Source: a virus
Length of the DNA stretch: 64,000 bases
Virus record (IMG/VR): IMGVR_UViG_3300008954_000045
Coordinates: 3,942-67,941 of that record
Direction: 5' to 3' (one strand)
The notes below the pieces were generated by a model. That model did no database searches. It saw only the letters and a program-made list of their open reading frames with translations, and had not been told where the DNA came from. This document shows, piece by piece, positions 22,292 through 47,099 of this stretch. A program made the translations under genes and the position numbers. Positions within the stretch are counted from its first letter, which is position 1. Each line of letters opens with the position of its first letter.

Positions 22292-22491
22292 TTGTTCTGT
22301 TCCTTAGATAACATCTCTTGCAATAAGGATTTGACATTTTTCAGTTCTTCTTCTAGTGTTGCTATCCGCTTCTTTTCTAATTCTTGTTGGTTTATCTTGA
22401 TATATTGATTTTTATTTGTGTTAATAATAGCATTTGATATATTATCCCTATAAAGATATTTCTCTCCATCAACTCGTACCCTATTTAGCAT
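22288..22491 (-). CDS. small coiled-coil hypothetical protein
   Basis: LYRD..SNAIINTN...Y...LEEELKNVKSLL; ATG overlaps the upstream stop; usual neighbour of the DUF4815-type gene in marine T4-likes. Confidence 0.7.
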   Translation of the reverse strand: MLNRVRVDGEKYLYRDNISNAIINTNKNQYIKINQQELEKKRIATLEEELKNVKSLLQEMLSKEQNK

Positions 22492-33700: not shown

Positions 33701-34086
33701 TATCGTACCCTCTTTATTGGAAGTGCAAGTGTCTGTAGGGTTGGAATCCCTCTAACCTTGAACTCGATAGTAACATCAAGTCTATTTTGATCATCATTCT
33801 GTATTACTGTTACTTTTTCTATGATTGCCCTGGGTTCGTAGAATCCAATGATTTCTTCGATTTCCTTTTTTATCTCGAACGAAGTGAGTGAGGTAAAATT
33901 ATCGAAGAGAATATGACGAACCTTTGATTGAATTTCTGGATGAAATGGTTTATCAAATTTACCAATAAAGACAAGATTGCGAATAGATCGCTTCACCGCT
34001 TCGGTGTCAAATTTATATGATATGTCCCCGGTAATTGGATGCGGTTCTAAATCTAAATCGATATCGGAATATTTTTTTTCTGCCAT
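33700..34086 (-). CDS. gp25: baseplate wedge subunit
   Basis: YSDIDL...PHP.TGDI, AVKRSIRNL, PFHPEI, YEPR. Confidence 0.93.
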   Translation of the reverse strand: MAEKKYSDIDLDLEPHPITGDISYKFDTEAVKRSIRNLVFIGKFDKPFHPEIQSKVRHILFDNFTSLTSFEIKKEIEEIIGFYEPRAIIEKVTVIQNDDQNRLDVTIEFKVRGIPTLQTLALPIKRVR

Positions 34087-34092
34087 TGTATT

Positions 34093-34752
34093 CTATGTAT
34101 TCTGTGCTGCTAACTCAGCCTCAATATATCTTCGTTTTTCTTCTGACATCGTAACAACATCTTCTTCTATCACTTCGTCTGCTTTCATCCAAGAACACCA
34201 CTCAATAGACAAGCATCCAATAACACTCAATCCACTAGCATTTCTAATCGGCATCAAGGAAAACAGCACCACATTATTTGATTCGAGGTGTCTCTTATAA
34301 TGACAATCGGGTAAATGACTAACAAGGAAGGGGGTTGCATCATTTGCAGTTACGAAATCGAGCATCTCTGCAAACATTGTAAGAAGGACATCTTGGCGAT
34401 CTTGCCTAGTTTCTGAAACTCCAGATCTGCAAGATTCGTGTGTAAGAGAGAACCGTTTCATTGCAGTCCCATCAAGAAACGTACCACCATTGTGGAATTG
34501 TAATATTTGTGTTCGGGCAGAACTAGTAACTACACGAAGTTCTGTGAGGTATTCGTGTATTTTTGTGTGCGTGTTTACAAATTTTCGGGATGTTGGAGGT
34601 TCCTTCCATATCGTATTTTTTTTCTTTCTCTTGTTATATACATGTTTAATGAGCGGAAGTGCTAAAAACACCCCCGCTATCAGTGCTGCCCCCGCCATTC
34701 CAATTTCTACCCAAGATCCCAAGATATCGATGTCTCCTATCCGATTCGCCAT
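34093..34752 (-). CDS. single-TM membrane protein with GAF-like C-terminal domain (possible holin T-like)
   Basis: One hydrophobic helix GMAGAALIAGVFLALPLI followed by a basic patch, then ILQFHNGG.F..G....FS.THE. Confidence 0.5.
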   Translation of the reverse strand: MANRIGDIDILGSWVEIGMAGAALIAGVFLALPLIKHVYNKRKKKNTIWKEPPTSRKFVNTHTKIHEYLTELRVVTSSARTQILQFHNGGTFLDGTAMKRFSLTHESCRSGVSETRQDRQDVLLTMFAEMLDFVTANDATPFLVSHLPDCHYKRHLESNNVVLFSLMPIRNASGLSVIGCLSIEWCSWMKADEVIEEDVVTMSEEKRRYIEAELAAQNT

Positions 34753-34795: not shown

Positions 34796-35083
34796 TTACC
34801 CATTTGCAATCACATTGGGAGAATGTGTAGCACATCTTGATCCACAGCATACCGGATCTCCCTTCCGCCCAACTTTTAGTTTGTTTGCAAATACATCTGG
34901 TGATCCGTCACACAAAACAGAACCGTGACATGGAGGACCACAACAATGCACTGCCCACGAATCTGTTACTCTGTGTACTGGTATGTTGTTTGCAAATACA
35001 TTTGGTGATCCTTGATTGCTGGGTCTTGGAGGATAGCAATCGTGTCCTGTTCCGATATCGCCTTTTCTGTGAACGTGTGGCAT
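34796..35083 (-). CDS. gp5.4: PAAR-domain spike tip protein (gp5.4-like)
   Basis: PHVHRKGD..GHDC, GSPNVFAN.IPVHRV.D, H..GSP.VFAN..VGRKGD..CGS. Confidence 0.92.
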   Translation of the reverse strand: MPHVHRKGDIGTGHDCYPPRPSNQGSPNVFANNIPVHRVTDSWAVHCCGPPCHGSVLCDGSPDVFANKLKVGRKGDPVCCGSRCATHSPNVIANG

Positions 35084-35796
35084 TACCCATAACTCCTTAT
35101 GATTGCTTTACCGTCGCCCCCCGCAGCCCCCCAATCCCCCACTACACTACCCCCACCACCACCGCCGCCGGGCTGACTTCCATCACTTGCTGGTCCAGTG
35201 GACGGTGGGGTTCCATCTGCTCCACCTCCACCAGCACCACCGTTTGGATCGGCGCCATCCCCACCATCACCCCCATCGTTTCCTTGATAATTTTCGCCAA
35301 CATTTCCATTTGTGTTGGTATCCCCACCAGAAGCAATTCCCGCATCTCCGCCTGCACCACCACTTTTTCCCATTTGTCCACCCCCACCACCACCAGCAGT
35401 TACAGAAAACGAAGTGATGGTTGAAAGTAGTCTTTTATGGGATGTCAAACTAGAATCACCCCCATCATATCCATCTTGATTTTCGGTTTGTTGTGCTGTG
35501 GCCGCAGCACCAACATTAAAGTTGATTGTGTCTCCCGTTTGCATGTTACCTGCACCATAATATGTGGTTTTACAGTAAGCACCCCCACCACCACCGCCGC
35601 CACTATAATGAGTTACCGATCTACCACCGCCGGTGGTGCTTCTCGATGCACCTTCACCACCAGCACCCCACAATTCTAACTCAATATACAGTGTACCAAG
35701 AGGAACACTATACGCAACATTTCCCGATGTTGTGTAGGTTTGTTCATCTATCAATTGATATTCTCTGGTACTTGCTGCTCGTCCGATCCCTAACAT
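35083..35796 (-). CDS. glycine-rich protein (fibre-tip adhesin-like)
   Basis: Start MLGIGR at 35796 with GGAG RBS; ELWGAGG, GGGGGGAY, PGGGGGG, GGDGK.II motifs. Confidence 0.75.
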   Translation of the reverse strand: MLGIGRAASTREYQLIDEQTYTTSGNVAYSVPLGTLYIELELWGAGGEGASRSTTGGGRSVTHYSGGGGGGGAYCKTTYYGAGNMQTGDTINFNVGAAATAQQTENQDGYDGGDSSLTSHKRLLSTITSFSVTAGGGGGGQMGKSGGAGGDAGIASGGDTNTNGNVGENYQGNDGGDGGDGADPNGGAGGGGADGTPPSTGPASDGSQPGGGGGGGSVVGDWGAAGGDGKAIIRSYG

Positions 35797-35803
35797 ATTT
35801 CTC

Positions 35804-38800
35804 CTAACTGAAATCTTGTCCACCGACAAATCCATAGTAGGTGGATCCACCATCAACCGTCAAGAATGTCACAATATCTAGTCTGTTTGAAAATGTTGGT
35901 TCAATTCCGCCTGCCCACATTATAGTATCTGTGTTTCCAACTGCCGCACACCCATTACAAAATAGACAATCATCATATGTGATAGATGCTCCGTTTTCAA
36001 CATACATCGTTAGTGTTCCTACCGTCCCAGAATCCGGGGCGTTGTACAACCAAATTGCGCAATTTGGTGGGAATTGTGGAACACTATATTCAGATAGATG
36101 TGCGTTGCCATCTTCAAAGTTCATAAAGATATTACCAGAAGCGGGGGTGTTTACTGCAATAGAAGTATCTTTAAGTGTTGCTTCGTGAATGGTATTATCT
36201 TGTATACTACCAAATACTTCACCAATGTTGTACCATGCTCCTATCTGTATATCATTATTGAAATTTACAGAAGCAGTAATACCAACTAAATTGTAATTTA
36301 CATCAAATGTAAAATCTGATGTACCGCCAATTGTACCATTTTCGTTGTATATGATTTTATGCACAGAATCAGAATCGTCGTTGGGGGTGGGGGCTGGTCC
36401 AGTAGGTCCAACAGGAGGAGTTGTTGCAATCTCCCATTTGTTGTTGTCTGTATATACAAGAGTATCACCGTCCACTGCACCTGAAATATCATCTGAAACA
36501 TCAACAATCTCATTTAAATACAAATCATCAACAGATATTCTGATAATGTTTTTCGCTTCATTTGTATCTAATTTGATATTAGAACCAGCCACGAATGTGA
36601 TTATTCCTGAGTTTCCAATAAATCCATCTGAGGAGATTGATGCAGTAAGAGAACCCTTGATTATTTGGGTCGTTGATACTGCGCTTTCAAAGTTTGGTTT
36701 ACCCAGTTCTTTAGAATCTATCAATTCGGCTCTTGAATATTTAAACGAAAAATTAGTAAGTGGTTCTGTAAAATCATATAGTTTGATTTTTTCGTTTGTG
36801 TGGAAATTGACAATTTGAAAGTTTACATCAGCCTGTACTAACTCAACCGGATCTGGTACGATTGGGATATCTTTGGACAGTTCTGCATCTGTTCCGAGTA
36901 TGTCATTTATGCTTCTTGGTGGTGATAGAGGATTACCACCACCGGAACAATCCGCGTCAGTTAGTCTATCACAGGGGCACGATCCATCGAACGATTGACA
37001 TGGATAACCATATTCGTGATGACAATAATCTATACAATCTCCATTTAAATTTTCCCCACATTCAATACATCTCTGGCAACCCAAACAAACACAAGCATCA
37101 TCACAGCAGTCCATATCGTCGCACGGGCATATGCAACAATTTGGCTCGATGCACGGATTCTCATTATCTCTGCATTCAAAATCTTTGCATAAGTACGTAG
37201 GAAGATTGTAGCCGCATTGCCCGCCGTCTCCTATCTGTACACCACATGGTACAATAAAAGTAGTGTTACATTCAAGATTAGCGCACGGATTTTCGCAACA
37301 TGAACAAGTGACGGTAACATTACCATCGACACTGTACTCAGAAGAACACCCATTCCACTCATTATTAGCCTGACAATAATACCTCCAATCACAATCTAGT
37401 TTTCCGTTCGCTCCCATTACTCCCCCTGCTGTGTATGCCCACACATATCCACCACCGCCAGGACATAAGTCTTTTATTTGCGCCTGCACACTGAGGCAGT
37501 CACACGGACAGCCGGGACCATCGCCATTTCCCTGCGGATCTAAACCAACAGGACATCCTAACAGAGGTCTTCTATAACCACGAACTTCCCCATCTTCACA
37601 ATATTCGTCCGCTGGGGCTATGTGTTGGCAACACCCATAGTCACTACCGACTGGATTATCACTAGTTCCACAGCAATAAAGAGAACATTTCCCACCACAA
37701 CAGGATGTTTGTTGTTCTTCACCTGTACATGGGTTGTAGATCTTCGGGCAAGGGCACACATCATCACCACAAGGCGGGCTCAAGGGCGGCATAGTTCCAT
37801 CATCATTCTTCGGACAGCACTTTTCGTTGGGGTACGGGCCTGGGGGACCATCATAACTAAAACAAAAAGCAGTGTCGAACGGGCAACACTGGAAATTACA
37901 GCACTCAGCCTCGTCTACTGTACCACAACACGGTCCGGGGGTATTTACGTCGGCACAACAAATCCAATTATCTGGACAACAACCACAGGAAGGCCAGCAA
38001 TTATCATTTTCATTACAACATTCAGCCCGAATCAGGCCTGATTCGGGCTCACAACAAAATTCAGCAAGCGAACAACAGGATCTATCATCACAACAACCAC
38101 TGCTAGTTTCTAGGTTGCAAGGGCACCTATCTCCACAACATTCTGACTCAGCCGCCTCTTCAGGCGGACAACAATCATCACCACAACAATAAAAATGATC
38201 AGGGCAGCACTCTCCACTACAACAATAATACATGTCTTCACAACAGATATCACCACAACAATCCTGAGTGTCAGGGCAACACCCACCTCCACAGCATTGT
38301 GATCCAGCAGTACAGCACATATCACCACAACATTCTGCATCTGATGGACAACATGTATTACCACAGCATTGCGGGCAACAACTACCATCGTCACAACATT
38401 CTGTTTCGGGTGGGCAAGGAGGCACACACAACGGTGGTGGACAATATTCACATATTCCATTAACACAACATAAATCAGTACCAACACAATCACTTGATGT
38501 GTCACATTCAGGGCAGGGTGGTGGTTTACATATACCATCACAACAAATTTCACCCCTTAATACACAATGAATGTTTTCCGTACATGCACCACAATGGGTA
38601 ATGTCACAGGTTGCATTATCACCTTTATATTCACCACCATAAAATAAACATTGGTCGTGTGTTGTTTCAATGCAAGCATCAATGGCCATTGACTCACATG
38701 ACGTAGATGGTAAACAACACGCCCCCAAAATTAGTGGTGCTTGATCACATTGTTCATAGTCACAATATCCAGCAGGACCTGGAACTCCAAAATTACCAAT

Positions 38801-40612
38801 AGAACCTTCGTTTCCGGGATACCCCACTGGACCGGGCAAAAATGTTGTTTCAGATAATCCTGCATCACAACTAATGTTGTCGCTCTTTTCAAAAGATGAG
38901 AATACCTTATTTTGATATCGCCTTAATTCTATTGCGTCATTTTCACAATCATAACAGTCACAAGGAGAACCAGGCTCGGGGTATGGAGAAACCAACAATT
39001 CCTCCATTGTAGCAGTTGATTTTCTTTCGATATGTTTGAATTCGGGGAAGAATACATCTGTGGATCGAGTTACACCATTTTGAATATCAATCAGTTTTTG
39101 TTTGAATTCTGATGTGCTGAATATCTCAGAAACCAGTTCTTTGAAAATAGGATCATTTTCGGTTTCTTTAAGAATATTCTGCCCAAGCGTGTAGTTGTGT
39201 ACCACCTTTTTCGCTTTGCAATAGTTTTCTTCGTCTTTATCAATTAAACTACGAACATCTTCAATAATTTTTGGTAGGAACGGAGAAACTACAGAATCAA
39301 ATACTGTAGGATTATTCCACAATTCAAGTGCTAATCCGATAATACCAGATCCTTCTGATATTGAAGTAGAATCACAAGAATCACAAGGAACACAAGCAGT
39401 TTTGTTAATGATTTTGTTTAAACGAAAATCACCAATCCCCATCAAACTTCCAAACACAAAAGAATAACTCTCTTGATCTATATCAGTAATTGTTTTCATT
39501 ATACTGGAATATGCACCAGCAATCGTTAATCTATCAAAAAAATCATCCATCGTTTCTGCGTTTTTCCCAGAAATCACATCCGTATGAAATTTTAGCATAT
39601 TTAAAGTCATTACTAAAGTCTCAAGTAGAGATATCACTTCGTCTGCTTGATTTTTAGTGAGAGGAAAAATTTCAGAAATAGTAGGAATATTATCGTGTTC
39701 GGGTGATGGTATTGGTCCTTGATATAGAGTATATGATTCTGCGGTAGGACCTTCTGGAACAAACGATTGCGGATATTCAACAACATTTCCGGTATCTTCT
39801 ACGCCTGAGACGTAATAAGGCGTTTCCCCCTCATCACCATACCGTACAAAATCTTCTTCTGGTGGTATTGGAATTTGCTCTGGTTCACAAATATAATAGA
39901 TGGTAGAACCATCAGAACCAAAAGTTTCACCCATAACCCCGCAAGTGCTACCGGAACCACCATATACCCCCCCAGTCATAGAACAATCCAATTCAGTATA
40001 CGAATAACATTTGTTTACAACACAACACCACCCTGTAGCCCCATTTAATTCGACAGGAATGGAAATGTCTGACTCAGATTCTGTATTGTTTATAACCCCC
40101 CCCTCTTCCATAAGAGGGTCAAAAGTCCCTTGCTCTTCATAAATAACATTTTCAAGTTCTTCTTCGAGTTCTTCTATAGCATCCGATGTTACACCATAAG
40201 TACCGTGAAATTGAATCCCACTACCAGCCCCACCCAAACCATTAGGCATATAATAATCAACACCATTAATTGTGTGTGTATGATATCCTGCTGTGGTTTC
40301 ACCATCTCTAATATAATCCGGTGTTGGGCTTGCATCTATTGCTTCTTGTGTGGTATGGAAAAGTGGATAGTGCCCATCAAGAGCAAATGCGTTTGTTCCA
40401 GGCCAAGCAACACCATCTTCCAATACCAAATCAAACATCGAAGTAAGAATTTCAATTTCTTTTTGACAAATTTCAACAGATTCATCAATTATCACAGTTA
40501 GAGGATTTTGAAAACCTTTACCTTCGGCAATCAATGTGATAGCATGACGCTGCTCTCGCGTTAGCGTGTCAAACGGTATTTCTATGGTTTCGGGAATCTC
40601 GAACTTAGCCAT
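35804..40612 (-). CDS. giant cysteine-rich fibre-like protein (1602 aa), paralog B
   Basis: Helical N-domain, collagen-like GPxG, GACC motif, long CC-repeat tract, C-terminal WAGG..PTFS...DIVTF.TVDGG..YYGFVGGQDF fibre-type domain. Confidence 0.8.
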   Translation of the reverse strand: MAKFEIPETIEIPFDTLTREQRHAITLIAEGKGFQNPLTVIIDESVEICQKEIEILTSMFDLVLEDGVAWPGTNAFALDGHYPLFHTTQEAIDASPTPDYIRDGETTAGYHTHTINGVDYYMPNGLGGAGSGIQFHGTYGVTSDAIEELEEELENVIYEEQGTFDPLMEEGGVINNTESESDISIPVELNGATGWCCVVNKCYSYTELDCSMTGGVYGGSGSTCGVMGETFGSDGSTIYYICEPEQIPIPPEEDFVRYGDEGETPYYVSGVEDTGNVVEYPQSFVPEGPTAESYTLYQGPIPSPEHDNIPTISEIFPLTKNQADEVISLLETLVMTLNMLKFHTDVISGKNAETMDDFFDRLTIAGAYSSIMKTITDIDQESYSFVFGSLMGIGDFRLNKIINKTACVPCDSCDSTSISEGSGIIGLALELWNNPTVFDSVVSPFLPKIIEDVRSLIDKDEENYCKAKKVVHNYTLGQNILKETENDPIFKELVSEIFSTSEFKQKLIDIQNGVTRSTDVFFPEFKHIERKSTATMEELLVSPYPEPGSPCDCYDCENDAIELRRYQNKVFSSFEKSDNISCDAGLSETTFLPGPVGYPGNEGSIGNFGVPGPAGYCDYEQCDQAPLILGACCLPSTSCESMAIDACIETTHDQCLFYGGEYKGDNATCDITHCGACTENIHCVLRGEICCDGICKPPPCPECDTSSDCVGTDLCCVNGICEYCPPPLCVPPCPPETECCDDGSCCPQCCGNTCCPSDAECCGDMCCTAGSQCCGGGCCPDTQDCCGDICCEDMYYCCSGECCPDHFYCCGDDCCPPEEAAESECCGDRCPCNLETSSGCCDDRSCCSLAEFCCEPESGLIRAECCNENDNCWPSCGCCPDNWICCADVNTPGPCCGTVDEAECCNFQCCPFDTAFCFSYDGPPGPYPNEKCCPKNDDGTMPPLSPPCGDDVCPCPKIYNPCTGEEQQTSCCGGKCSLYCCGTSDNPVGSDYGCCQHIAPADEYCEDGEVRGYRRPLLGCPVGLDPQGNGDGPGCPCDCLSVQAQIKDLCPGGGGYVWAYTAGGVMGANGKLDCDWRYYCQANNEWNGCSSEYSVDGNVTVTCSCCENPCANLECNTTFIVPCGVQIGDGGQCGYNLPTYLCKDFECRDNENPCIEPNCCICPCDDMDCCDDACVCLGCQRCIECGENLNGDCIDYCHHEYGYPCQSFDGSCPCDRLTDADCSGGGNPLSPPRSINDILGTDAELSKDIPIVPDPVELVQADVNFQIVNFHTNEKIKLYDFTEPLTNFSFKYSRAELIDSKELGKPNFESAVSTTQIIKGSLTASISSDGFIGNSGIITFVAGSNIKLDTNEAKNIIRISVDDLYLNEIVDVSDDISGAVDGDTLVYTDNNKWEIATTPPVGPTGPAPTPNDDSDSVHKIIYNENGTIGGTSDFTFDVNYNLVGITASVNFNNDIQIGAWYNIGEVFGSIQDNTIHEATLKDTSIAVNTPASGNIFMNFEDGNAHLSEYSVPQFPPNCAIWLYNAPDSGTVGTLTMYVENGASITYDDCLFCNGCAAVGNTDTIMWAGGIEPTFSNRLDIVTFLTVDGGSTYYGFVGGQDFS
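36515..36588. repeat. 74-nt near-identical repeat, copy 1
   Basis: 72/74 identical by eye to 41274-41347; encodes GSNIKLDTNEAKNIIRISVDDLYL. Confidence 0.9.
38153..38368 (-). repeat. six tandem 12-aa CC-x3-CC-x5 repeats
   Basis: CCGNTCCPSDAE CCGDMCCTAGSQ CCGGGCCPDTQD CCGDICCEDMYY CCSGECCPDHFY CCGDDCCPPEEA. Confidence 0.9.
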
Positions 40613-40619
40613 AGGGAGT

Positions 40620-43600
40620 TCATCCTGTAAATCCTAAACCACCAACAAATCCATAATAACCAGAACCACCATCTAATGTAGTAAACGAAATAATATCTGT
40701 ACCGCTTACCGACAAGGTTGGTATATGCCCTCCCGACCATTTTATATCACCAAAAGAAAGCCCGCCGGAATGTGATTCGGCATCCTCAAATATAATAGTC
40801 ATTGTACCAACAGTTCCTGACGTTGGGGCATTGGTAAATGTCCATTGTATTGAATTGCCTGTATCAATCCCTCCCACCTTAACTTTTTGTACATTTCCAT
40901 TTTCAAAATCAAATTCTACACTAATAGCAACTGTTCCGTTATCATAGAACGATTCAGAATAATCCTTAAGATTTGCTCTCTCTATTGTGTTGTCTTGTGC
41001 TTGAATGTCCCCAGAAGAGGTAAATCCATCATATAGATAAGCGTCTGCATTTATTTGGAGGACATTTGAACTATAATCGTATTTAAGATTGTTGCTACCT
41101 GTTGCTTCTCCGTTTTGGTTGTAAAGTATTTGCTCATCGGCACCACCAACTGGTCCTGTAGGTCCAACCGGTCCTTGCCCCGGTTGGGTGGGTGTCCACA
41201 ACCCTGTGGTTGAATGCCATTGTAAAATATCATTGTCAGATGGTGTTGCTTCCGACACATCAATGAGTTCATGTAAATACAAATCATCAACAGATATTCT
41301 GATAATGTTTTTTGCTTCATTCGTATCTAATTTGATATTAGAACCAGATACGAAGGAAATTAACAAACCCTCACCAATCATTCCATCTTTTTGTATAGAC
41401 GCAGTGAGTTCACCTTCAATTATAGTAGTTGATGCTTTATTGTTTTCATATCCGGCGTGCCCCAAAGAAGCATCACTTTTCATTTCCGCTTTTGATATTA
41501 GAGACAAACTTCCTTGGGCATACTTAGAATCCCTCAATTCTGTTTTCTTCTTTTCAGATGCAACAAAGTTTACAAGTTGAAATTGAATTGGTTGAGAAAG
41601 AACGACAGGTTTAGTTGGGCTTACAAGAGGTTTAGCATTTGATATATTTGCAGTTGTACCGATGGTGCCTGGTTTGAATTCCAACTCAACATTGTGCCCT
41701 ACAATAATGCCGTTTTCGTATATTGGTGTGTATGTCTTGCTTGATTCGACCATATTTTGAATTGAAGTGTTTGGGTATTTCTTGAGCAAGCCAGAATATT
41801 TTCTAACATTTATCTGAGACGTATCGTTTCTAGATTGTATTGTTTTTGGTGTCGGTGGAATTTGACTTGGGGGAATATATCCATCACAACTATCTTTCCA
41901 AATTCCACCCAACACAACACAACTATCTCTTGTTATTTCGCTGTTGCACCCATCTTCTAACCAACACACACCAAAAGATCTAAATCCGGGATTGCAGTTA
42001 TTACAATCACCTTCAATACAACTAGTACCATCCAATTTAGGCCGTGGGTCACAATGCTCAAATCCATTTACTTCACACCCATATCTGCACCCACCTTCGC
42101 ACGGATAGTATCCGGGGAATGATAGGGAACCATCAACCCCCACATATCGGTCAACACAACTGATTCCAGATTTTGAAATTGTTGCACACCCATCACCAAC
42201 ATATACCTTACCTGGCATATCCTCATCTTCTTTTGGTATATCATACATTCCTTGTGGACCGGGACCGACACAATTTCGATTTCCCCACCCACAAACCTCG
42301 CATTCATCAGGACAACAAGTGGGGCAAGGATCTATATTACTATTGATGTCATTTAGACCCCAGTTTCCAGTTTCTTCAAGGAGTACATAGTTGTCGGGTT
42401 TGTCTGGATCTACTCTACATTCGCAAGGATTCCCTGACACATCTGACCAAATACCATCACACCTATAGTCCATTTTCTTTGGATTGATGGGTGATAGGGG
42501 ATAGAAAAGAGGGCAATGAATAACACACTGAGATGTCCCAATATCAGCATTATCATCATATATTGCTTCTGGATTACCGTCACTGTGTTCACAGCCACAC
42601 GGGCATCCGTGATTTTCTGTGGTGTTTGGATCTGGAGTGAGTTGTCGGACAATTGGTTGCCAATTATTCCATTCTAACCAAGATTGGTGATCGTTGTGCG
42701 GGCAGCAACCATGTTCAGACCAAACACATACAGTCTCTGCGGTGTTTGGGTTTGTAGCACAGCAACAATTCCCCGTCGAAGAATTTTTACATTCTCCGTT
42801 GCAGCACGATTCACCTACATCACAACAAAAAGTTTCTCCGTCTTCGTTGATGCATTCTTCTTTGTTGCAATCATCACAAACCGTACAACGATCAACACAA
42901 CACAATTCACCACTACCACAACATTCCCCACCACAAGAGTTAGTAGTACCTTCTAAGCAACAATAATGAGTGTTACCTTCCATCCAGCAAGTTTCACCAT
43001 ATGGACAACAGCAACCACCTTGTTCCCAACAATCTAGATTGCTGTGTTCCATCCCACACGGTTCCGCATCATTACTGTCACACCTACATCCGCACCCACC
43101 TATAAACGATTGACCAAAACCACAATATGTGGTTTCTTCTCCAGTAAAATGATCATAATATTTGTCTTCTGTTGGACTATAACATATGCAGTGTGTTGTA
43201 GTACCTTCCCCTTGCCATTCTTCTGTACACATCTCACAATTATCCGGGCAACAATTACCAGATATGCAGTTACCCGAACAACATCCCGCCGGTGCATTTT
43301 CACAACACTCTCCACTACAACAATATGGAGTACCATCATCCAATCTACAGCACGAATTACCATTCGGACAGCAATGGAATGTGTCGTCAAATTCACATTC
43401 ATAAAAACCACTTAAACATTCGCATACGGTTTCAATGGGGACACACTCACCGTTACAGCATTTAGATAAGTCATCGCAACATTTACCATCACAATGTTGT
43501 GTAGTATTACAACACTCATTACCTGCAATTGTTGTGAGACACGATTCCCCCGGCGGACAGCAAAGACACCCACCGTCCAAACAAGTCTTTCCAGACATCC

Positions 43601-45038
43601 CACTACCGCAACATTCATCTTCGCAGCAATTACCTTCTAAACAACAACCATCGCCACCACAACAAGATGTTCCTTGTGGGCAACATTCCCCCTGACAATC
43701 AGGACATGTTCCATCTAAACAGGGTTCATAGCAAAATCCATTACAACACACTGTAGTTCCCGCACAGCAAGTATCACCACACACTGTAGTTCCCTCTGGG
43801 CATTGTGGACATGGGGGACATGTATTATCGGAGCAAGGTGTGGTGCATTGACCACCACAACATATCATTCCGAGGGCACAGTCTGCTGTGACGGAACATC
43901 CGCTAGGTAGGCAATTAATAACCGAACAAGAAGAATTCTCCCCATAGAATTCTCCACCATAATGAAAACACTGAAATTCAGTTGCAGACACGCAATACCC
44001 GCAAACACAACAAGCACCCTCGGTACCACCCCCTTGCCAGCAGGGGCTTTCCTCTCCTTGGTTATTAGTTTCTCCACAATTACAGTCACCAACTGGACCA
44101 GGAATACCAGGCGATCCAGTTATTCCCCTACCTCCATGTGCGCCTGTTGGTCCAGCCGGACCGATAGATATTAGTTGATCTTCGATGAGACAAGGACCAG
44201 TACTTTCAAGATTGAATTGAGGAAAGAACTCATTGGTGGTTGTGCTTGGGTTGGGATTTCGTATTGCAAGAATTGCTTCTTGTAGTTGGGGGGTTGCAAA
44301 TACAGATTGCATTGCTGCACCGAAAATTGGATCACTGTCGAGTGTTTCTATAATTTTGGTGCCGTATGAGTACCTTTCAATTACACGTTTTGCTTTGCAA
44401 AAATTTTGTTCATCGTTTTCAATCAAAGATTTGAGTTTATCGACAATTGTTGGGAGTAAACAAGTGATGATGCTCGGGATTGTTACCGGGAACCTCTGAA
44501 CAACCCCAGCAAGTCCTTGTAGTCCTGATGAACTTGTATCAATATCACAATAATTTGATGAAGTTTCACAAAAAGATAGATGATGAATTCTTCCAATGAT
44601 GTTATCACCAAGAACGGAAAGACTACCGAATATCTCAGAGTGTTGTTCTCTGTCCATTCCGGTAATAGTTTTCATTACTCTGGTATACAAACCTGCAATT
44701 GATAATCGTTGAACCAAATCACCAACATATTCACTTTCAACACCAGACAATTTATCAGTGTGTAGTTTTAGTACATCTAGCCAATATTTAATCAACGTGA
44801 GCCAGTAGTCTAATTCGATTATCTGTTGTTCGGTGATGCGTGATTGATCGAATGGATGAATTTCGAGTGCGAGGATTTTGGCATGTTCCTCCTCAACAAT
44901 TTTTTTTGCTTCTTTGATTTTTGGTGCTTGGGGGTTTTGGAAGCCTTCACCTGTCATCACCAAATAGACAGCCTCTCGTTGCTCGTTTGTGAGCATATCG
45001 AAAGGGATTTCAATATTGGGTACGGAGAAGTTTGCCAT
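40620..45038 (-). CDS. giant cysteine-rich fibre-like protein (1472 aa), paralog A
   Basis: Same architecture as 35804-40612: IEIPFD.LT.EQR.A...G.GFQNP start, GPAGPTG collagen, GACC, CC tract, ..TLDGG..YYGFVGG end. Confidence 0.8.
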   Translation of the reverse strand: MANFSVPNIEIPFDMLTNEQREAVYLVMTGEGFQNPQAPKIKEAKKIVEEEHAKILALEIHPFDQSRITEQQIIELDYWLTLIKYWLDVLKLHTDKLSGVESEYVGDLVQRLSIAGLYTRVMKTITGMDREQHSEIFGSLSVLGDNIIGRIHHLSFCETSSNYCDIDTSSSGLQGLAGVVQRFPVTIPSIITCLLPTIVDKLKSLIENDEQNFCKAKRVIERYSYGTKIIETLDSDPIFGAAMQSVFATPQLQEAILAIRNPNPSTTTNEFFPQFNLESTGPCLIEDQLISIGPAGPTGAHGGRGITGSPGIPGPVGDCNCGETNNQGEESPCWQGGGTEGACCVCGYCVSATEFQCFHYGGEFYGENSSCSVINCLPSGCSVTADCALGMICCGGQCTTPCSDNTCPPCPQCPEGTTVCGDTCCAGTTVCCNGFCYEPCLDGTCPDCQGECCPQGTSCCGGDGCCLEGNCCEDECCGSGMSGKTCLDGGCLCCPPGESCLTTIAGNECCNTTQHCDGKCCDDLSKCCNGECVPIETVCECLSGFYECEFDDTFHCCPNGNSCCRLDDGTPYCCSGECCENAPAGCCSGNCISGNCCPDNCEMCTEEWQGEGTTTHCICYSPTEDKYYDHFTGEETTYCGFGQSFIGGCGCRCDSNDAEPCGMEHSNLDCWEQGGCCCPYGETCWMEGNTHYCCLEGTTNSCGGECCGSGELCCVDRCTVCDDCNKEECINEDGETFCCDVGESCCNGECKNSSTGNCCCATNPNTAETVCVWSEHGCCPHNDHQSWLEWNNWQPIVRQLTPDPNTTENHGCPCGCEHSDGNPEAIYDDNADIGTSQCVIHCPLFYPLSPINPKKMDYRCDGIWSDVSGNPCECRVDPDKPDNYVLLEETGNWGLNDINSNIDPCPTCCPDECEVCGWGNRNCVGPGPQGMYDIPKEDEDMPGKVYVGDGCATISKSGISCVDRYVGVDGSLSFPGYYPCEGGCRYGCEVNGFEHCDPRPKLDGTSCIEGDCNNCNPGFRSFGVCWLEDGCNSEITRDSCVVLGGIWKDSCDGYIPPSQIPPTPKTIQSRNDTSQINVRKYSGLLKKYPNTSIQNMVESSKTYTPIYENGIIVGHNVELEFKPGTIGTTANISNAKPLVSPTKPVVLSQPIQFQLVNFVASEKKKTELRDSKYAQGSLSLISKAEMKSDASLGHAGYENNKASTTIIEGELTASIQKDGMIGEGLLISFVSGSNIKLDTNEAKNIIRISVDDLYLHELIDVSEATPSDNDILQWHSTTGLWTPTQPGQGPVGPTGPVGGADEQILYNQNGEATGSNNLKYDYSSNVLQINADAYLYDGFTSSGDIQAQDNTIERANLKDYSESFYDNGTVAISVEFDFENGNVQKVKVGGIDTGNSIQWTFTNAPTSGTVGTMTIIFEDAESHSGGLSFGDIKWSGGHIPTLSVSGTDIISFTTLDGGSGYYGFVGGLGFTG
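41274..41347. repeat. 74-nt near-identical repeat, copy 2
   Basis: See 36515-36588. Confidence 0.9.
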
Positions 45039-45054
45039 TATATACTCTCTGTGT

Positions 45055-45819
45055 TTAGATTATATCACCAATATCTATGTCTGGTAAACTTATGCTGTCT
45101 GTGATACAATCCAGACCAGGGATATCTGGCATCAATCCACCAACATCTGGAATATCTACTCCTAACGCGCCAGGAACATCACCCAAACCAAAATCTCCAA
45201 TATTACCAAACATTCCTTCTGCAATACCTTGAAAATCTGGAACTTCTGGTATCGTGGGAATCTTAAAATTACAAAGATCTGCAAGTGGATTTCCAATATC
45301 CACAGCAGATAGGACACTATCAGCAAAAGATTTTGCCATCGCTTCAACTTCTTCTAGTGATGGTGGTTCTGGTATACTTGGCAGTTTGATTAAACCACTA
45401 AATTCTGGTATACCAGAAAACATCACTTCTGGATCAAGCAACTTTCCAATGTCTGGTGGAACTCCAAGAGAGGATATCACTTGCTCCATGTTTGGAATGC
45501 TAGGCAAAGAACCCAATGATGCTAATCCATCGATATCTTTAAATAGATTTTCATTACATAAAGGATTGCTTGATAAAAGACCGCTAATTCCTCCAATATC
45601 TGGAATCATTCCTTCTAGAAGATCTGATGCACAACCACCAACATCTGGCATCAATCCACCAAGATCAACATCAGGTAAAAAACCACCAAGATCTGGCATC
45701 AAATCACCAACGTCAGGAATCAAACCTTCTATTGCTTCACCAGCAGCATCTGCTAGATTATCAGGTCTGATACTATCAATTGCTTCGTTAATTCTCGGGA
45801 TGTTGTCTTCTAGTGCCAT
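45055..45819 (-). CDS. acidic Pro/Asp/Gly-rich repeat protein downstream of gp5
   Basis: Multiple [LIM]PD[VIL]G[GD] units; start overlaps the gp5 stop. Confidence 0.75.
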   Translation of the reverse strand: MALEDNIPRINEAIDSIRPDNLADAAGEAIEGLIPDVGDLMPDLGGFLPDVDLGGLMPDVGGCASDLLEGMIPDIGGISGLLSSNPLCNENLFKDIDGLASLGSLPSIPNMEQVISSLGVPPDIGKLLDPEVMFSGIPEFSGLIKLPSIPEPPSLEEVEAMAKSFADSVLSAVDIGNPLADLCNFKIPTIPEVPDFQGIAEGMFGNIGDFGLGDVPGALGVDIPDVGGLMPDIPGLDCITDSISLPDIDIGDII

Positions 45820-47099
45820 TATTGACTATAATACCCCGGATGGTTCAGATGGATATCTGGACCTGCATTGTAATATTGATTCTTCCCAGACTGTATTTGA
45901 ATCTGCCCGTCTACTCTCATATTATAGTTCCCGCTTACATACGCATCAAAGTCTCCAGATATAGCAGTGTTCATGTTCCCATCAACCAATTCGGTGTTCA
46001 TATCACCCTTCACCAATTTGGTATTGACGTTTCCTTCTTTCACTTCAAGGTTGATGTTTGCCTTATCTCCAATATGGATATCAAAATGACAATTGCCTGC
46101 TGCGTCATTTTCGCCTTTCTTTTGCTTGTCCTTGTTTGCCATAATCTTGATACCCTTATCAAGAGTTATGTTTGTATATCCCTCAACATGAACAGATTTA
46201 TTTCGTAAAATTACTGTATAGTCATTTCTAACAACTTTTTGAACACGATCCCCGTTTGGGTGTATCTCTTCAAATGTACCAGATCGGTGATATCTATGAA
46301 GACGCTCGGCACCAGGCGTATCGTCAATTTCAATCACATGACCAGATTCACTTTCATGTACATGATTATGAGGATAGATGGCACTATATGCCGTTTTTGG
46401 TTCTGTCCAAAATCCTTGAGGTGAAGGTTCCGCAGTATTCTTTTTGCTTTTCTTGATACTTGTGCGGACTGGTTCTCCAGTATATTCACTCGTTGGAATT
46501 TTCTCATCCAACAACCCAGGCGAAGAACCACCCAAAGGTCGTCTCTTAATTTCAACAATTGTTTTATCAATTTCTTCGTTTCTTGCAAGTCGATTTGTGT
46601 CGGGTTCATTTAAAAAGAATTCTTTTGGATATGCTTTACCCGCATCCGAGTTTACCAAGAGGGCACCTTGTCCGTCTCTTGGATACTTTTGTACCTTATA
46701 ACCCTTCGCAAGCATGTGCCCTACTGGATCTTGCTTACGTTTATCTTCATCACGCGGATCATTGAATCCTGTTTCGTTGTCTGCCTTTTTTTCTGGTATA
46801 CCGCCGATTGAACCCATCATTATAGGTTCTTGTGCGTTTTCTCCGTCACGGAAAAAACCAACAACCCACGAACCGGGAACAAGACCCGTTGGGGAAAACC
46901 CTACCCCGCTTATTGCTGCACTAGTGATTGGTTGAATCGGATAAGCCCACGGCAAATCTTCTGTCTTTATCATACTTTTATCGTCAGTATGAAACCCTAA
47001 TATACGAACTCGACATCTACCAAGCATTAGAGGGTCATCAACATCCTCAACAACACCTTGCCACCAAATGAAATTGTCTTTACCTATAAAGTTTTGCAT
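45819..47099 (-). CDS. gp5: baseplate hub spike (OB-fold + beta-helix, no lysozyme domain)
   Basis: WWQGVVEDVDDP..LGRCRVRILG.H, LPWA, WVVGFFRDG, YPHNHVHESESGH..EIDDTPG.ERLH..HRSGTF, 8-aa VxGxxxxx repeats. Confidence 0.93.
   Translation of the reverse strand: MQNFIGKDNFIWWQGVVEDVDDPLMLGRCRVRILGFHTDDKSMIKTEDLPWAYPIQPITSAAISGVGFSPTGLVPGSWVVGFFRDGENAQEPIMMGSIGGIPEKKADNETGFNDPRDEDKRKQDPVGHMLAKGYKVQKYPRDGQGALLVNSDAGKAYPKEFFLNEPDTNRLARNEEIDKTIVEIKRRPLGGSSPGLLDEKIPTSEYTGEPVRTSIKKSKKNTAEPSPQGFWTEPKTAYSAIYPHNHVHESESGHVIEIDDTPGAERLHRYHRSGTFEEIHPNGDRVQKVVRNDYTVILRNKSVHVEGYTNITLDKGIKIMANKDKQKKGENDAAGNCHFDIHIGDKANINLEVKEGNVNTKLVKGDMNTELVDGNMNTAISGDFDAYVSGNYNMRVDGQIQIQSGKNQYYNAGPDIHLNHPGYYSQ

What the first reader, a model, noticed from the sequence alone, without database searches (positions are those of the whole stretch)
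35083..45819. Cassette of two giant cysteine-rich fibre-like paralogs inserted between the gp5 spike and its PAAR tip
Seen: about 10.7 kb separates gp5 from gp5.4 and encodes a PDxGG-repeat protein, two paralogs (1472 and 1602 aa) and a Gly-rich protein. Both giants share one architecture: a homologous helical N-domain (IEIPFD.LT.EQR.A...GFQNP...LK.HTD..SG), a short collagen GxxG stretch, a GACC...C...C..YGGE..G....C....C module, then roughly 600-700 aa of divergent Cys-dense sequence dominated by CC doublets (4 Cys per 12 aa in the most regular part), a shared linker, a second GP.GP.GP, and a fibre-type C-terminal domain (W.GG..PT.S...DI..F.T.DGG..YYGFVGG). Established: tailed-phage proteins fold in a reducing cytoplasm and are usually Cys-poor, and T6SS/eCIS loci place cargo genes next to VgrG and PAAR. 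Inference: these form trimeric spike- or baseplate-attached appendages whose Cys tracts are either disulfide-locked after lysis or form a metallothionein-like polymetal scaffold. I know of no described phage system like this.
Basis: partly seen in the sequence, partly recalled or inferred. Interest (0 to 1): 0.85.

Follow-up and report, generated by a model that had tools for sequence, protein, structure and literature searches.

The report
Cysteine-rich giant fibre genes beside gp5
An uncultured marine T4-like phage carries two huge, cysteine-packed, fibre-like genes in its baseplate gene block; they belong to an undescribed family that probably forms disulfide-braced tail appendages.

Summary
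On the minus strand, 10.7 kb between gp5 (45819-47099) and a PAAR gene (34796-35083) holds four genes: a PDxGG-repeat protein, two paralogous giants (1472 and 1602 aa, 9% Cys) and a Gly_rich_2 protein.

The giants belong to a metagenome-only family: 19 further proteins and about 29 contigs. I found no relative in 50,697 deposited phage genomes.

What each part is:
- The N-domain is a distant relative of DUF7217. In four other T4-like contigs this domain is a stand-alone ~250-280 aa gene in the same slot between gp5 and gp25.
- 7-9 collagen triplets follow.
- Next comes a "GACC" module. This is an uncurated repeat found in thousands of exported Planctomycetota-type surface proteins, and it locally resembles the disulfide-stapled iRhom homology domain.
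- The Cys tract keeps its cysteines (129 of 129) while other residues drift (52% identical). It contains an exact 12-residue CC-x3-CC-x5 repeat.
- The C-terminal domain folds like phage fibre tips.

Best reading: baseplate-anchored trimeric fibres with a disulfide-braced shaft. The gp5-to-PAAR interval is a variable receptor-binding slot, not a cargo bay of the kind seen in type VI secretion systems (T6SS). Whether the cysteines hold disulfides or metal, and whether the proteins are in the virion, are both untested.

The parts
45819..47099 (-). gp5 baseplate hub / central spike protein: OB domain plus C-terminal beta-helix region, no lysozyme domain. 426 aa.
   Evidence: PF06714 Gp5_OB, E 3.9e-29. 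phrog_430, E 1.4e-94.
45055..45819 (-). PDxGG-repeat protein (254 aa). It belongs to a conserved ~190-aa family that directly follows gp5 wherever the giants occur. The PDxGG repeats themselves are insertions found only in the window and in L006.
   Evidence: Translation. Alignment A4 with invariant NPLC...DG...NPL..LC core. Synteny. No Pfam, PHROG, NCBIfam or cultured-phage match.
40620..45038 (-). Giant 1, 1472 aa, 135 Cys.
44169..45038 (-). Giant 1 N-domain (residues 1-290): helical, DUF7217-like. Proposed baseplate anchor.
   Evidence: AF2 model, pLDDT 73. BFVD top hits are DUF7217 proteins, TM 0.60/0.73. hhalign 99.8% to stand-alone relatives. Same-slot synteny of the stand-alone forms.
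44088..44162 (-). Giant 1 collagen-type run, 8 G-X-Y triplets (residues 293-317).
43896..44018 (-). Giant 1 GACC module (residues 341-381).
   Evidence: Bacterial and iRhom kin.
41859..44081 (-). Giant 1 Cys tract (residues 320-1060): 129 Cys, acidic, His-poor.
40623..41663 (-). Giant 1 C-terminal region (residues 1126-1472): conserved linker (FQLVNF..., ISFVSGSNIKLDTNE..IIRISVDD), short GP.GP.GP stretch, and fibre-tip domain.
   Evidence: Model with pLDDT 57 overall and 63-80 in the tip. BFVD fibre matches. PDB Z 5.2-6.6 to phage spike, baseplate and TSP4 domains. phrog_7760, E 2.5e-5.
35804..40612 (-). Giant 2, 1602 aa, 144 Cys. Paralog of giant 1.
38990..40612 (-). Giant 2 N-domain (residues 1-541). 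It is split by a ~230-aa insert (39713-40435), which carries a GHYPLF...GYHTH...YYMPNG motif and an extra GACC-type module (39941-40033).
   Evidence: (profile positions 68-305 match residues 309-541).
38768..38833 (-). Giant 2 collagen-type run, 7 triplets (residues 594-615).
38582..38725 (-). Giant 2 GACC module (residues 630-677).
38165..38398 (-). Giant 2 regular CC tract (residues ~739-816). From 754 to 814 it has an exact 12-residue period, CC-x3-CC-x5.
35807..36898 (-). Giant 2 C-terminal linker plus fibre-tip domain (residues 1239-1602).
   Evidence: 39% identity to giant 1. Alignment A3.
35083..35796 (-). Glycine-rich domain protein (Gly_rich_2). Probably a further distal fibre or adhesin component. 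The ATG at 35796 is the likely start.
   Evidence: PF21722, E 2.1e-11. phrog_863 'tail fiber assembly', E 9.3e-17, and phrog_12796 tail fibre. Ortholog start in L009.
34796..35083 (-). PAAR (gp5.4-like) spike tip protein, 95 aa.
   Evidence: PF05488, 36.7 bits against a cut-off of 27. phrog_281, E 2.4e-24.
33700..34752 (-). Context: conserved 219-aa ORF (phrog_14038) and gp25. Together they close the slot in every relative examined.

Best explanation
The two giants are late, structural fibre proteins of a clade of uncultured marine T4-like myoviruses.

Each chain is built from six parts:
1. **Anchor.** A DUF7217-like helical N-domain, which in related phages is a separate small gene placed right after gp5. 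I infer that it anchors the protein in the baseplate or hub region.
2. **Trimerising hinge.** 7-9 collagen triplets (inferred).
3. **GACC module(s).** One or more copies of a ~35-40-aa cysteine module that bacteria otherwise use in exported surface proteins.
4. **Shaft.** 600-700 aa (up to ~1,500 in relatives) in which the cysteine skeleton is fixed while everything else drifts. It includes a 12-residue CC-x3-CC-x5 repeat. I infer a thin rod braced by disulfides that form once the particle reaches oxic seawater.
5. **Linker.** A conserved beta-rich linker with a second short collagen stretch.
6. **Tip.** A C-terminal beta-sandwich domain shared with many phage tail fibres, which I infer binds the host.

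The gp5...PAAR/gp25 interval is this clade's variable receptor-binding slot. It holds one or two giants, and in some phages also a beta-helix (tailspike-like) protein, a tail-fibre-like protein or a Gly-rich protein.

Shown here: gene reality, paralogy, family, synteny, cysteine conservation, and the kinship of the modules and domains. Inferred: trimer state, virion location, attachment point, disulfides, and receptor binding.
For: **The genes are real, and the cysteines are not a compositional accident**
- The genes sit in the baseplate gene block. They are tightly packed with gp5, PAAR, gp25 and gp6, with gaps or overlaps of 1-16 nt.
- A second sample reproduces the assembly.
- Giants have 9% Cys against 0-1.4% in 14 other ORFs.

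**Family**
- 20 proteins at E<=1e-3 of 6,239 candidates, the query itself included. The other 19 are 1217-2448 aa, and those complete at both ends share the same overall plan; three (P0018, P0019, P0021) end in a different C-terminal domain.
- The N-domain profile finds 77 representatives at E<=1e-3 and 17 at E<=1e-30 among 1.84 billion proteins.

**Synteny**
- gp5 is upstream in 10 of 10 assessable IMG/VR loci (of 11 fetched) and in 13 of 13 assessable metagenome loci (of 22 fetched, 4 of them duplicates of IMG/VR contigs).
- PAAR is downstream in 3 of 3 related loci that extend that far.

**N-domain is DUF7217-like**
- AF2 model with pLDDT 73.
- Best BFVD hits are DUF7217 proteins: E 6.7e-5, TM 0.60/0.73.
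- hhalign against the stand-alone relatives: 99.8%, E 3.4e-28, 260 columns. One of those relatives, P0051, passes the Pfam cut-off.
- In 4 of 4 contigs fetched for stand-alone relatives (L050-L053), the gene lies between gp5 and the u219-gp25-gp6 block.

**Fibre character**
- Collagen runs.
- C-terminal model: 215 BFVD matches at E<=1e-3, named tail fiber, fiber or collagen-like protein.
- PDB matches: Z 6.6 (rmsd 3.1, 95 aa) to the Pa223 capsid spike, Z 6.5 to a KP1 baseplate protein, Z 5.8 to CBA120 TSP4.
- phrog_7760 tail fibre, E 2.5e-5.
- Neighbouring cassette genes in relatives are a Beta_helix protein (L007, E 1.1e-6) and a tail-fibre-like protein (L015, phrog_8780, E 1e-7). In the window the neighbour is a Gly_rich_2 / 'tail fiber assembly' protein.

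**Structural cysteines**

| Giant 1 compared with | Cys kept | Non-Cys identity in the tract |
|---|---|---|
| P0008 | 129 of 129 | 52% |
| P0009 | 123 of 129 | 39% |
| P0010 | 114 of 129 | 32% |
| P0011 | 115 of 129 | 31% |

- For comparison, the N-domain is 56-78% identical and the C-terminal part 51-69%.

**Disulfide rather than metal**
- The GACC module profile finds 2,963 proteins at E<=0.01 among the 8,000 scored. The top hits are Planctomycetota, Phycisphaerae and Eisenbacteria proteins carrying SdrD_B, dockerin, PEGA and S8 peptidase domains.
- Two of these that I read have signal-peptide-like N-termini and 8 and 12 tandem modules.
- The profile also matches the iRhom1/2 homology domain in the PDB: E 4.2e-5, 5.2e-5, 4.1e-3, 4.7e-3. 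That domain is extracellular and 'stapled by 8 disulfide bonds' (PMC11248996, passages read).
- Tract composition: D+E 13-18%, K+R 2.7-4.6%, His 0.2-2.5%, aromatics 5-8%.
- Virion disulfides have a precedent: cyanophage Pam3 fibres are disulfide-linked to the wedge (PMC9942802, passages read).
Against: - There is no direct evidence that the proteins are in virions, are trimers, or contact the baseplate.
- The giants have no signal-peptide-like N-terminus (by eye), so they must fold in, or at least survive, a reducing cytoplasm.
- No Erv1/ALR, glutaredoxin, thioredoxin or DsbA gene was found in this record or in 4 related records. All five are incomplete, at 14-75%.
- The window's own giant 1 N-domain gives no Pfam DUF7217 hit even at E<=1. 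Relatives hit only below the cut-off: 9 of 13, best E 3.3e-4.
- In phage CBA120 the DUF7217 gene is not beside baseplate genes.
- The C-terminal model is weak overall (pLDDT 57). Its PDB Z scores of 5-7 are in the range the tool calls common, and the best one is a capsid spike.
- Aligners favour matching C to C, which inflates the cysteine-conservation figures somewhat.
- The iRhom match is local and modest (27.5 bits).
- The A6 set used for hhalign was chosen from hits to the A2 profile, so it is not independent of it.
Confidence: 0.58

Rival explanations
1. Metal-thiolate shaft. The Cys tract folds in the reducing cytoplasm around Zn, Fe or Cu ions, as a metallothionein-like or zinc-knuckle-like polymetal rod. 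The rest of the fibre model stays the same.
For: - The proteins have no signal-peptide-like N-terminus, and no thiol oxidase was found in 5 incomplete records, so cytoplasmic disulfide formation is unexplained.
- Local Cys density is 15-17% with many CC doublets.
- T4 fibres and PAAR proteins are known to hold structural metal ions (recalled knowledge, not tested here).
Against: - The tract is strongly acidic and poor in Lys/Arg (K+R 2.7-4.6%) and in His (0.2-2.5%), so thiolate clusters would add uncompensated negative charge (this is inference).
- It contains 5-8% aromatic residues.
- C-x2-C is not the favoured spacing: gaps of 0, 3 and 5 residues dominate.
- The one recognisable module has exported bacterial kin and disulfide-bonded iRhom kin.
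Confidence: 0.15
2. Spike-borne central fibre or delivered cargo. The giants ride on the gp5-PAAR spike, as T6SS cargo rides on VgrG/PAAR, and are either a central fibre or are injected.
For: - The gene position between gp5 and PAAR is conserved in this clade.
- The likely trimer would match the threefold symmetry of gp5 (inference).
Against: - In L050, PAAR directly follows gp5 and the DUF7217-type gene comes after it.
- In Mosig and P-HM1, PAAR sits by gp25, with unrelated genes between it and gp5. The position therefore reflects a variable slot.
- No toxin, enzyme or T6SS adaptor domain was found in Pfam, NCBIfam or PHROGs.
- The C-terminus is a fibre-tip fold.
- A trimer of 1,500-aa chains on the piercing tip would obstruct penetration (inference).
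Confidence: 0.1
3. Neck, whisker or head fibres. The giants attach elsewhere on the particle, as T4 fibritin and capsid spikes do, and act in environmental sensing or adhesion rather than as baseplate fibres.
For: - The best PDB match of the tip is a capsid spike: Pa223, Z 6.6.
- In CBA120 the DUF7217 gene lies between the capsid module and gp3.
- T4 encodes fibritin among its baseplate and fibre genes (recalled).
Against: - Stand-alone DUF7217-type genes sit between gp5 and gp25 in 4 of 4 T4-like contigs examined.
- The giants lie in that same slot in every assessable locus.
Confidence: 0.1

Closest known systems
Phage tail fibres with collagen-like segments and a small C-terminal beta-sandwich tip (for example proteins named 'tail fiber', 'fiber' or 'collagen-like protein' in marine and other phages, matched in BFVD)
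   Same: - Modular fibre plan: N-terminal anchor, collagen triplets, shaft, C-terminal tip.
- The tip fold matches.
- The genes lie in the baseplate block.
   Different: - The shaft is a 600-1,500-aa tract with 15-17% Cys, which none of the matched fibres is described as having.
- The anchor is a DUF7217-type domain.
- No sequence relative was found in 50,697 deposited phage genomes by tblastn.
DUF7217 (PF23854), stand-alone ~240-aa phage proteins (for example CBA120 orf171, Pectobacterium phage Wc4, Serratia phage 3M)
   Same: - Helical fold (TM 0.60/0.73).
- Full-length profile-profile match to the stand-alone relatives.
- Shared motifs (..EQ+..I...G..F.NP, H.DRLSG, LI..DN).
   Different: - Here the domain is fused to a giant fibre.
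- Scores are below the Pfam cut-off.
- The function of DUF7217 is unknown, and no paper mentions it.
Tandem 'GACC' cysteine repeat of exported Planctomycetota, Phycisphaerae and Eisenbacteria surface proteins (not curated in Pfam), and the iRhom homology domain
   Same: - Module pattern G-A-C-C-x4-8-C-x7-C-x3-GG-x3-G-x4-C.
- In iRhom the matching region is extracellular and disulfide-stapled.
   Different: - The phage proteins carry only 1-6 such modules and have no signal peptide.
- Most of the tract (the CC-doublet part) matches nothing outside the family.
Cyanophage Pam3 tail fibres, disulfide-linked to the baseplate wedge (PMC9942802)
   Same: - A precedent for functional disulfides in a myovirus tail.
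- In Pam3 the fibres are lost on reduction with DTT.
   Different: - Pam3 uses a handful of inter-subunit disulfides.
- Here more than 120 Cys per chain form the body of the shaft.
- There is no sequence relation.
Disulfide-braced small repeats: granulin hairpin stacks and the 12-residue Tenebrio antifreeze beta-solenoid (recalled from memory, not tested)
   Same: - CC doublets at short regular spacing (granulin).
- A 12-residue period with internal cysteines (antifreeze protein).
   Different: - No Pfam hit to either at E<=0.01.
- Four Cys per 12 residues rather than two.
- The resemblance is a lead only.

Membership tests
DUF7217 (PF23854) | Pfam HMM score at or above the gathering cut-off (29 bits) | tested here: not met
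   The window's giant 1 N-domain gives no hit at E<=1. Of 13 N-domains, 9 hit below the cut-off, best E 3.3e-4. A genome scan gives 12.5 bits in the window record.
DUF7217 (PF23854) | Full-length homology to bona fide members by profile-profile comparison and by fold | tested here: met
   - hhalign: 99.8%, E 3.4e-28, 260 columns, against a set that includes P0051, which passes the cut-off at 34.1 bits.
- Foldseek to DUF7217 models: E 6.7e-5, TM 0.60/0.73.
- Caveat: the comparison set was drawn from hits to the query profile.
Collagen triple helix | Uninterrupted G-X-Y triplets | tested here: met
   8 triplets in giant 1 and 7 in giant 2. Runs of at least 4 triplets at the end of the N-domain in 16 of 21 family proteins by regex. 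By eye, P0018, P0019, P0021 and P0022 have runs containing Cys, and P0024 has a Pro-rich stretch there that is not regular G-X-Y. Pfam Collagen hits are below the cut-off.
Collagen triple helix | Trimeric assembly | not tested
Phage tail fibre / receptor-binding protein | C-terminal domain with a fibre-tip fold | tested here: met
   215 BFVD matches at E<=1e-3 to proteins named as fibres. phrog_7760, E 2.5e-5. PDB Z 5.2-6.6 to phage spike, baseplate and tailspike domains. The model's pLDDT is only 63-80 in this part.
Phage tail fibre / receptor-binding protein | Presence in the virion, attached to the baseplate | not testable with these tools
   Only synteny speaks to this. There is no cultured member and no proteome.
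Metallothionein-like metal scaffold | High Cys content with CC, CxC and CxxC motifs | tested here: met
   15-17% Cys in the tract. 30 and 34 Cys-Cys adjacencies within the tracts; 30 and 35 CC doublets in the whole proteins.
Metallothionein-like metal scaffold | Small size and near absence of aromatic residues (features recalled) | tested here: not met
   The tract is 640-770 aa long in the window's two giants, with 5-8% aromatic residues across the family.
Metallothionein-like metal scaffold | Bound metal ions | not testable with these tools
   Needs ICP-MS on expressed protein.
T6SS/eCIS-type cargo next to VgrG/PAAR | Toxin or enzyme domain, or a known adaptor domain | tested here: inconclusive
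   No such family was found in Pfam, PHROGs or NCBIfam for either giant. Absence of a hit does not exclude an unknown effector.
T6SS/eCIS-type cargo next to VgrG/PAAR | Fixed linkage to the spike and tip genes | tested here: not met
   The order differs in L050: gp5, PAAR, DUF7217-type gene, 983-aa protein. Cultured relatives hold unrelated genes in the slot.
GACC cysteine repeat (uncurated) | Pattern G-A-C-C-x4-8-C-x7-C-x3-GG-x3-G-x4-C, recognised by a profile | tested here: met
   One module in giant 1 and two in giant 2. Independent bacterial proteins P0213 and P0210 carry 8 and 12. The profile was built from phage modules, so the phage matches are partly by construction.

The most novel reading that the evidence does not exclude
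The Cys tract is a polymetallic thiolate rod, holding tens of Zn, Fe or Cu ions per chain, assembled in the reducing host cytoplasm. If so, these marine T4-like particles would be carriers of trace metal. Their fibres could exploit host metal-uptake receptors, in the spirit of the 'Ferrojan Horse' idea, which I saw only in a search listing and abstract.

A milder novel reading is a redox-gated fibre that stiffens only after lysis into oxic water, which would tie infectivity to oxygen.
Probability: 0.13. Interest if true: 0.85.

Novelty: new variant of a known kind. Interest (0 to 1): 0.62.

Why it matters
- **A new building principle for fibres.** Phage fibres are the main determinants of host range. 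A shaft built from more than 120 invariant cysteines per chain is not described for any phage I could find.
- **An open folding question.** If the shaft is disulfide-braced, it is unclear how such proteins fold when made in a reducing cytoplasm, and whether infectivity depends on redox state, for example in oxygen-minimum waters.
- **A first functional lead for DUF7217.** The synteny result points to a baseplate-module component next to gp5 that can serve as an anchor for fused fibres.
- **Wider links for the GACC module.** It connects phage fibres, thousands of bacterial surface proteins and the iRhom homology domain, whose fold was called unprecedented (PMC11248996, passage read).

Tried and rejected
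**Searches that found nothing**
- Megablast of the cassette, and tblastn of giant 1, its C-terminal 347 aa, the PDxGG protein and stand-alone relative P0051, against 50,697 phage records: no match. The low-complexity filter was on.
- Pfam, PHROGs and NCBIfam on the full giants: nothing, apart from the weak tail-fibre PHROG.
- phmmer of giant 1 and of the Gly-rich protein against PDB sequences: none.
- ESM Atlas on the Cys tract: no usable hit.
- Foldseek of the N-domain against the PDB: nothing at E<=1e-3, only generic helical bundles.
- Search with the regular CC tract (giant 2, residues 690-960): only itself and one family member among 91 candidates.
- Scan of 185,579 species genomes for the N-domain: none.
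- Earlier findings of this scan: nothing by place, sequence or words.

**Jobs that gave no verdict**
- Complex prediction of the N-domain with the PDxGG protein: no answer (score 0.00). This is evidence neither way.
- T4 late-promoter consensus TATAAATA: 2 matches against 3.4 expected, none in the cassette. Uninformative.
- Sequencing runs: 4 DNA runs of one marine study, no RNA holder listed.
- The search for related loci with alignment A6 failed because no stretch was conserved enough. Single proteins P0052 and P0057 found no locus.

**Searches for oxidoreductases**
- Erv1/ALR, glutaredoxin, thioredoxin and DsbA in 5 records: none. All records are fragments, and the Erv1 control rang nowhere.

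**Literature**
- 'DUF7217': 0 papers.
- cysteine-rich + myovirus + baseplate + marine: 1 irrelevant paper.
- Planctomycetes + cysteine-rich + repeat + dockerin: 0 papers.
- The two phage tail-fibre/cysteine-rich searches gave only the Pam3 paper as relevant.

**Set aside**
- L046, a 28-aa match at a contig end whose upstream ORFs look bacterial, was not counted as interpretable.

Full report
**1. What is in the sequence**

The window is most of a 67.9-kb IMG/VR viral record estimated at 38% complete. It belongs to a marine T4-like myovirus:
- The major capsid protein is at most 57.7% identical to those of Prochlorococcus and Synechococcus myophages.
- gp5 is 38-41% identical to those of Vibrio and Pelagibacter phages.
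- PHROG matches identify capsid, portal, sheath, terminase, tube and baseplate genes.

On the minus strand the order is:
- gp48
- gp53-like
- a phrog_350 tail protein (gp27 position)
- gp5 (45819-47099)
- PDxGG protein (45055-45819)
- giant 1 (40620-45038)
- giant 2 (35804-40612)
- Gly_rich_2 protein (35083-35796/35856)
- PAAR (34796-35083)
- a 219-aa ORF
- gp25, gp6, gp7-like, gp8

Neighbouring genes abut or overlap, so this is one co-directional block.

The giants have 135 of 1472 and 144 of 1602 Cys. Fourteen other large ORFs have 0-1.4%. Contigs from a second sample of the same study reproduce the whole stretch without indels and bridge the gene junctions.

**2. A family, and a conserved place**

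Giant 1 finds 19 other proteins of 1217-2448 aa, all from metagenomes. Those complete at both ends share the same overall plan. Three of them (P0018, P0019, P0021) end in a different C-terminal domain. No name is attached to any of them.

No relative exists in 50,697 deposited phage genomes at tblastn sensitivity, nor in one genome from each of 185,579 prokaryote species.

Eleven IMG/VR loci and 22 metagenome loci encode the N-domain. Four of the metagenome loci are the same contigs as IMG/VR ones.

| Feature | IMG/VR loci | Metagenome loci |
|---|---|---|
| gp5 directly upstream of the first giant | 10 of 10 assessable | 13 of 13 assessable |
| PDxGG-family gene between gp5 and the giant | 8 of 10 | 12 of 14 |

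Further points:
- PAAR follows in all three related loci that reach that far (L007, L009, L015).
- Tandem giants are common: the window, L006, L009, L026, L027, L030, L035 and L039.
- In an N-domain tree, first and second copies fall in separate well-supported clades, so the duplication(s) are old. The relation among the four clades is unresolved.
- L046, a 28-aa match in a bacterial-looking context, was set aside.

**3. What the slot means**

In cultured relatives the interval is variable:
- Pelagibacter phage Mosig has ~7 kb of small, mostly non-structural genes between gp5 and a PAAR-like ORF that sits beside gp25.
- Prochlorococcus phage P-HM1 has PAAR, a small ORF, then gp25, gp6 and gp7, preceded by a long island of small ORFs.

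Within the giant-bearing clade the cassette also varies:
- L007 has one 2425-aa giant plus a Beta_helix protein.
- L015 has a 989-aa N-domain-plus-Cys protein followed by a Cys-poor tail-fibre-like protein.
- The Gly-rich gene is present only in the window and in L009.

So this is a variable, host-recognition-type slot in the baseplate block. It is not an insertion that functionally separates the spike from its tip.

**4. The N-domain**
- The AF2 model (pLDDT 73) is a helical bundle.
- It has no PDB counterpart by Foldseek. Its best matches among viral models are DUF7217 proteins: E 6.7e-5, TM 0.60/0.73.
- Pfam DUF7217 hits are below threshold.
- A profile search of 1.84 billion representatives reaches stand-alone 240-300-aa proteins. 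One of them passes the Pfam cut-off.
- hhalign of the two sets gives 99.8% over 260 columns.

The key result is synteny of the stand-alone forms, seen in four of four contigs fetched:
- L050: gp27-like, gp5, PAAR, DUF7217-type (284 aa), a 983-aa unknown protein, u219-like, gp25, gp6, gp7.
- L051-L053: gp5, DUF7217-type, u219-like, then gp25 (L053 ends within the u219-like ORF).

The domain is therefore a regular member of the gp5...gp25 part of the baseplate module in a wide group of T4-like phages. In the giants it is fused to a fibre. That is the basis for inferring a baseplate anchor.

L050 also shows that PAAR can lie before this gene rather than after it. In CBA120 the DUF7217 gene is not next to baseplate genes, and no paper mentions the family. 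The function remains an inference.

**5. The cysteine part**

Right after the collagen run every member but one has a module G-A-C-C-x4-8-C-x7-C-x3-GG-x3-G-x4-C.
- A profile of it finds 2,963 proteins at E<=0.01 among the 8,000 scored. The top hits are large Planctomycetota, Phycisphaerae and Eisenbacteria proteins with surface or secreted-protein domains.
- Two that I read have signal-peptide-like starts and 8 and 12 tandem modules.
- Pfam does not model the repeat.
- In the PDB the profile hits only the iRhom1/2 homology domain at E<0.01 (E 4.2e-5 to 4.7e-3). That domain is extracellular and stapled by eight disulfides (PMC11248996, passages read).

The rest of the tract has no relatives outside the family. 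Its properties:
- 15-17% Cys, acidic, poor in Lys/Arg and His, with 5-8% aromatic residues.
- Its cysteines are almost immobile while other positions drift: 129 of 129 kept at 52% non-Cys identity, and 123 of 129 at 39%.
- Giant 2 has five exact periods of CC-x3-CC-x5.

Together these points favour structural disulfides in an extracellular rod.

Against that reading, the proteins lack a signal peptide, and no thiol oxidase gene was seen in five incomplete records. Oxidation after lysis, or a metal-bound state, both remain possible. Cyanophage Pam3 shows that tail disulfides do occur and do matter (PMC9942802, passages read).

**6. The C-terminal part**
- The model is weak overall (pLDDT 57), but the last ~110 residues reach 63-80.
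- It matches 215 viral models at E<=1e-3, many named as fibres.
- It matches phage spike, baseplate and tailspike domains in the PDB at Z 5.2-6.6.
- It also matches a tail-fibre PHROG.

**7. Verdict**

The best-supported mechanism is a baseplate-anchored trimeric fibre with a disulfide-braced cysteine shaft and a conventional tip (confidence about 0.58).

Rivals:
- Metal-thiolate shaft: 0.15
- Spike-borne fibre or cargo: 0.10
- Neck or head fibre: 0.10

It is a new variant of a known kind, the phage fibre, with an unusual and testable shaft chemistry.

Virion proteome tables of Ackermannviridae papers might already place DUF7217.

Noticed in passing
window 43896-44018, 39941-40033, 38582-38725; proteins P0105-P0224: The GACC module is a very widespread tandem repeat of bacterial surface proteins that Pfam does not model. 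Its profile also picks out the iRhom homology domain (E 4.2e-5), whose fold a cryo-EM paper called unprecedented. This is a possible deep link between a bacterial repeat and an animal domain.
   Followed up: partly
window 39713-40435 (giant 2 insert); L015:12952-15036; L050:4371-7322: A motif G(H/W/Y)(Y/F)PL(F/Y)...GYHTH...Y(Y/F)MPNG recurs in three places: the giant 2 insert, the start of the tail-fibre-like protein of L015, and the 983-aa protein of L050 (40% identity over ~90 aa, E 8.6e-17). It has no Pfam or PHROG family.
   Followed up: partly
window 9088-10257 and 10288-11181: The large terminase appears as two adjacent ORFs: a 297-aa N-part and a 389-aa C-part with a GTG start, 30 nt apart. 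This could be a real split, an interruption or an assembly error.
   Followed up: no
L009:6765-8171 and the same position in L007, L011-L014, L026 etc.: Most relatives carry an extra ~470-aa gene between the gp27-like gene and gp5. It has weak P-loop kinase (Zeta_toxin-like) and 5'-nucleotidase (NT5C) matches (phrog_5268, phrog_2643). The window and L006 lack it.
   Followed up: partly
window 34093-34752; L050-L053, L007, L009: A ~210-220-aa ORF (phrog_14038, function unknown) precedes gp25 in the window and in six of the seven related loci that reach that far. L015 is the exception (no match, and no room between PAAR and gp25). It may be an unrecognised baseplate-module component.
   Followed up: no
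window 45055-45819; alignment A4: The PDxGG repeats are lineage-specific insertions (window and L006) in an otherwise conserved ~190-aa protein with two invariant Cys. The protein co-occurs with the fused giants and was not detected in the four loci that have stand-alone DUF7217-type genes. It may be a dedicated chaperone or adaptor.
   Followed up: partly
window 22491-28013 and 52961-55819: Two other large genes: a 1840-aa protein (phrog_358, function unknown, 0.3% Cys) after gp8, and a 952-aa plus-strand ORF with no PHROG match.
   Followed up: no
L046:1-2014: A 28-aa match to the N-terminal motif lies at the end of a contig whose other ORFs look like bacterial membrane or exported proteins. 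It is either a chance match or a different context for the motif.
   Followed up: partly
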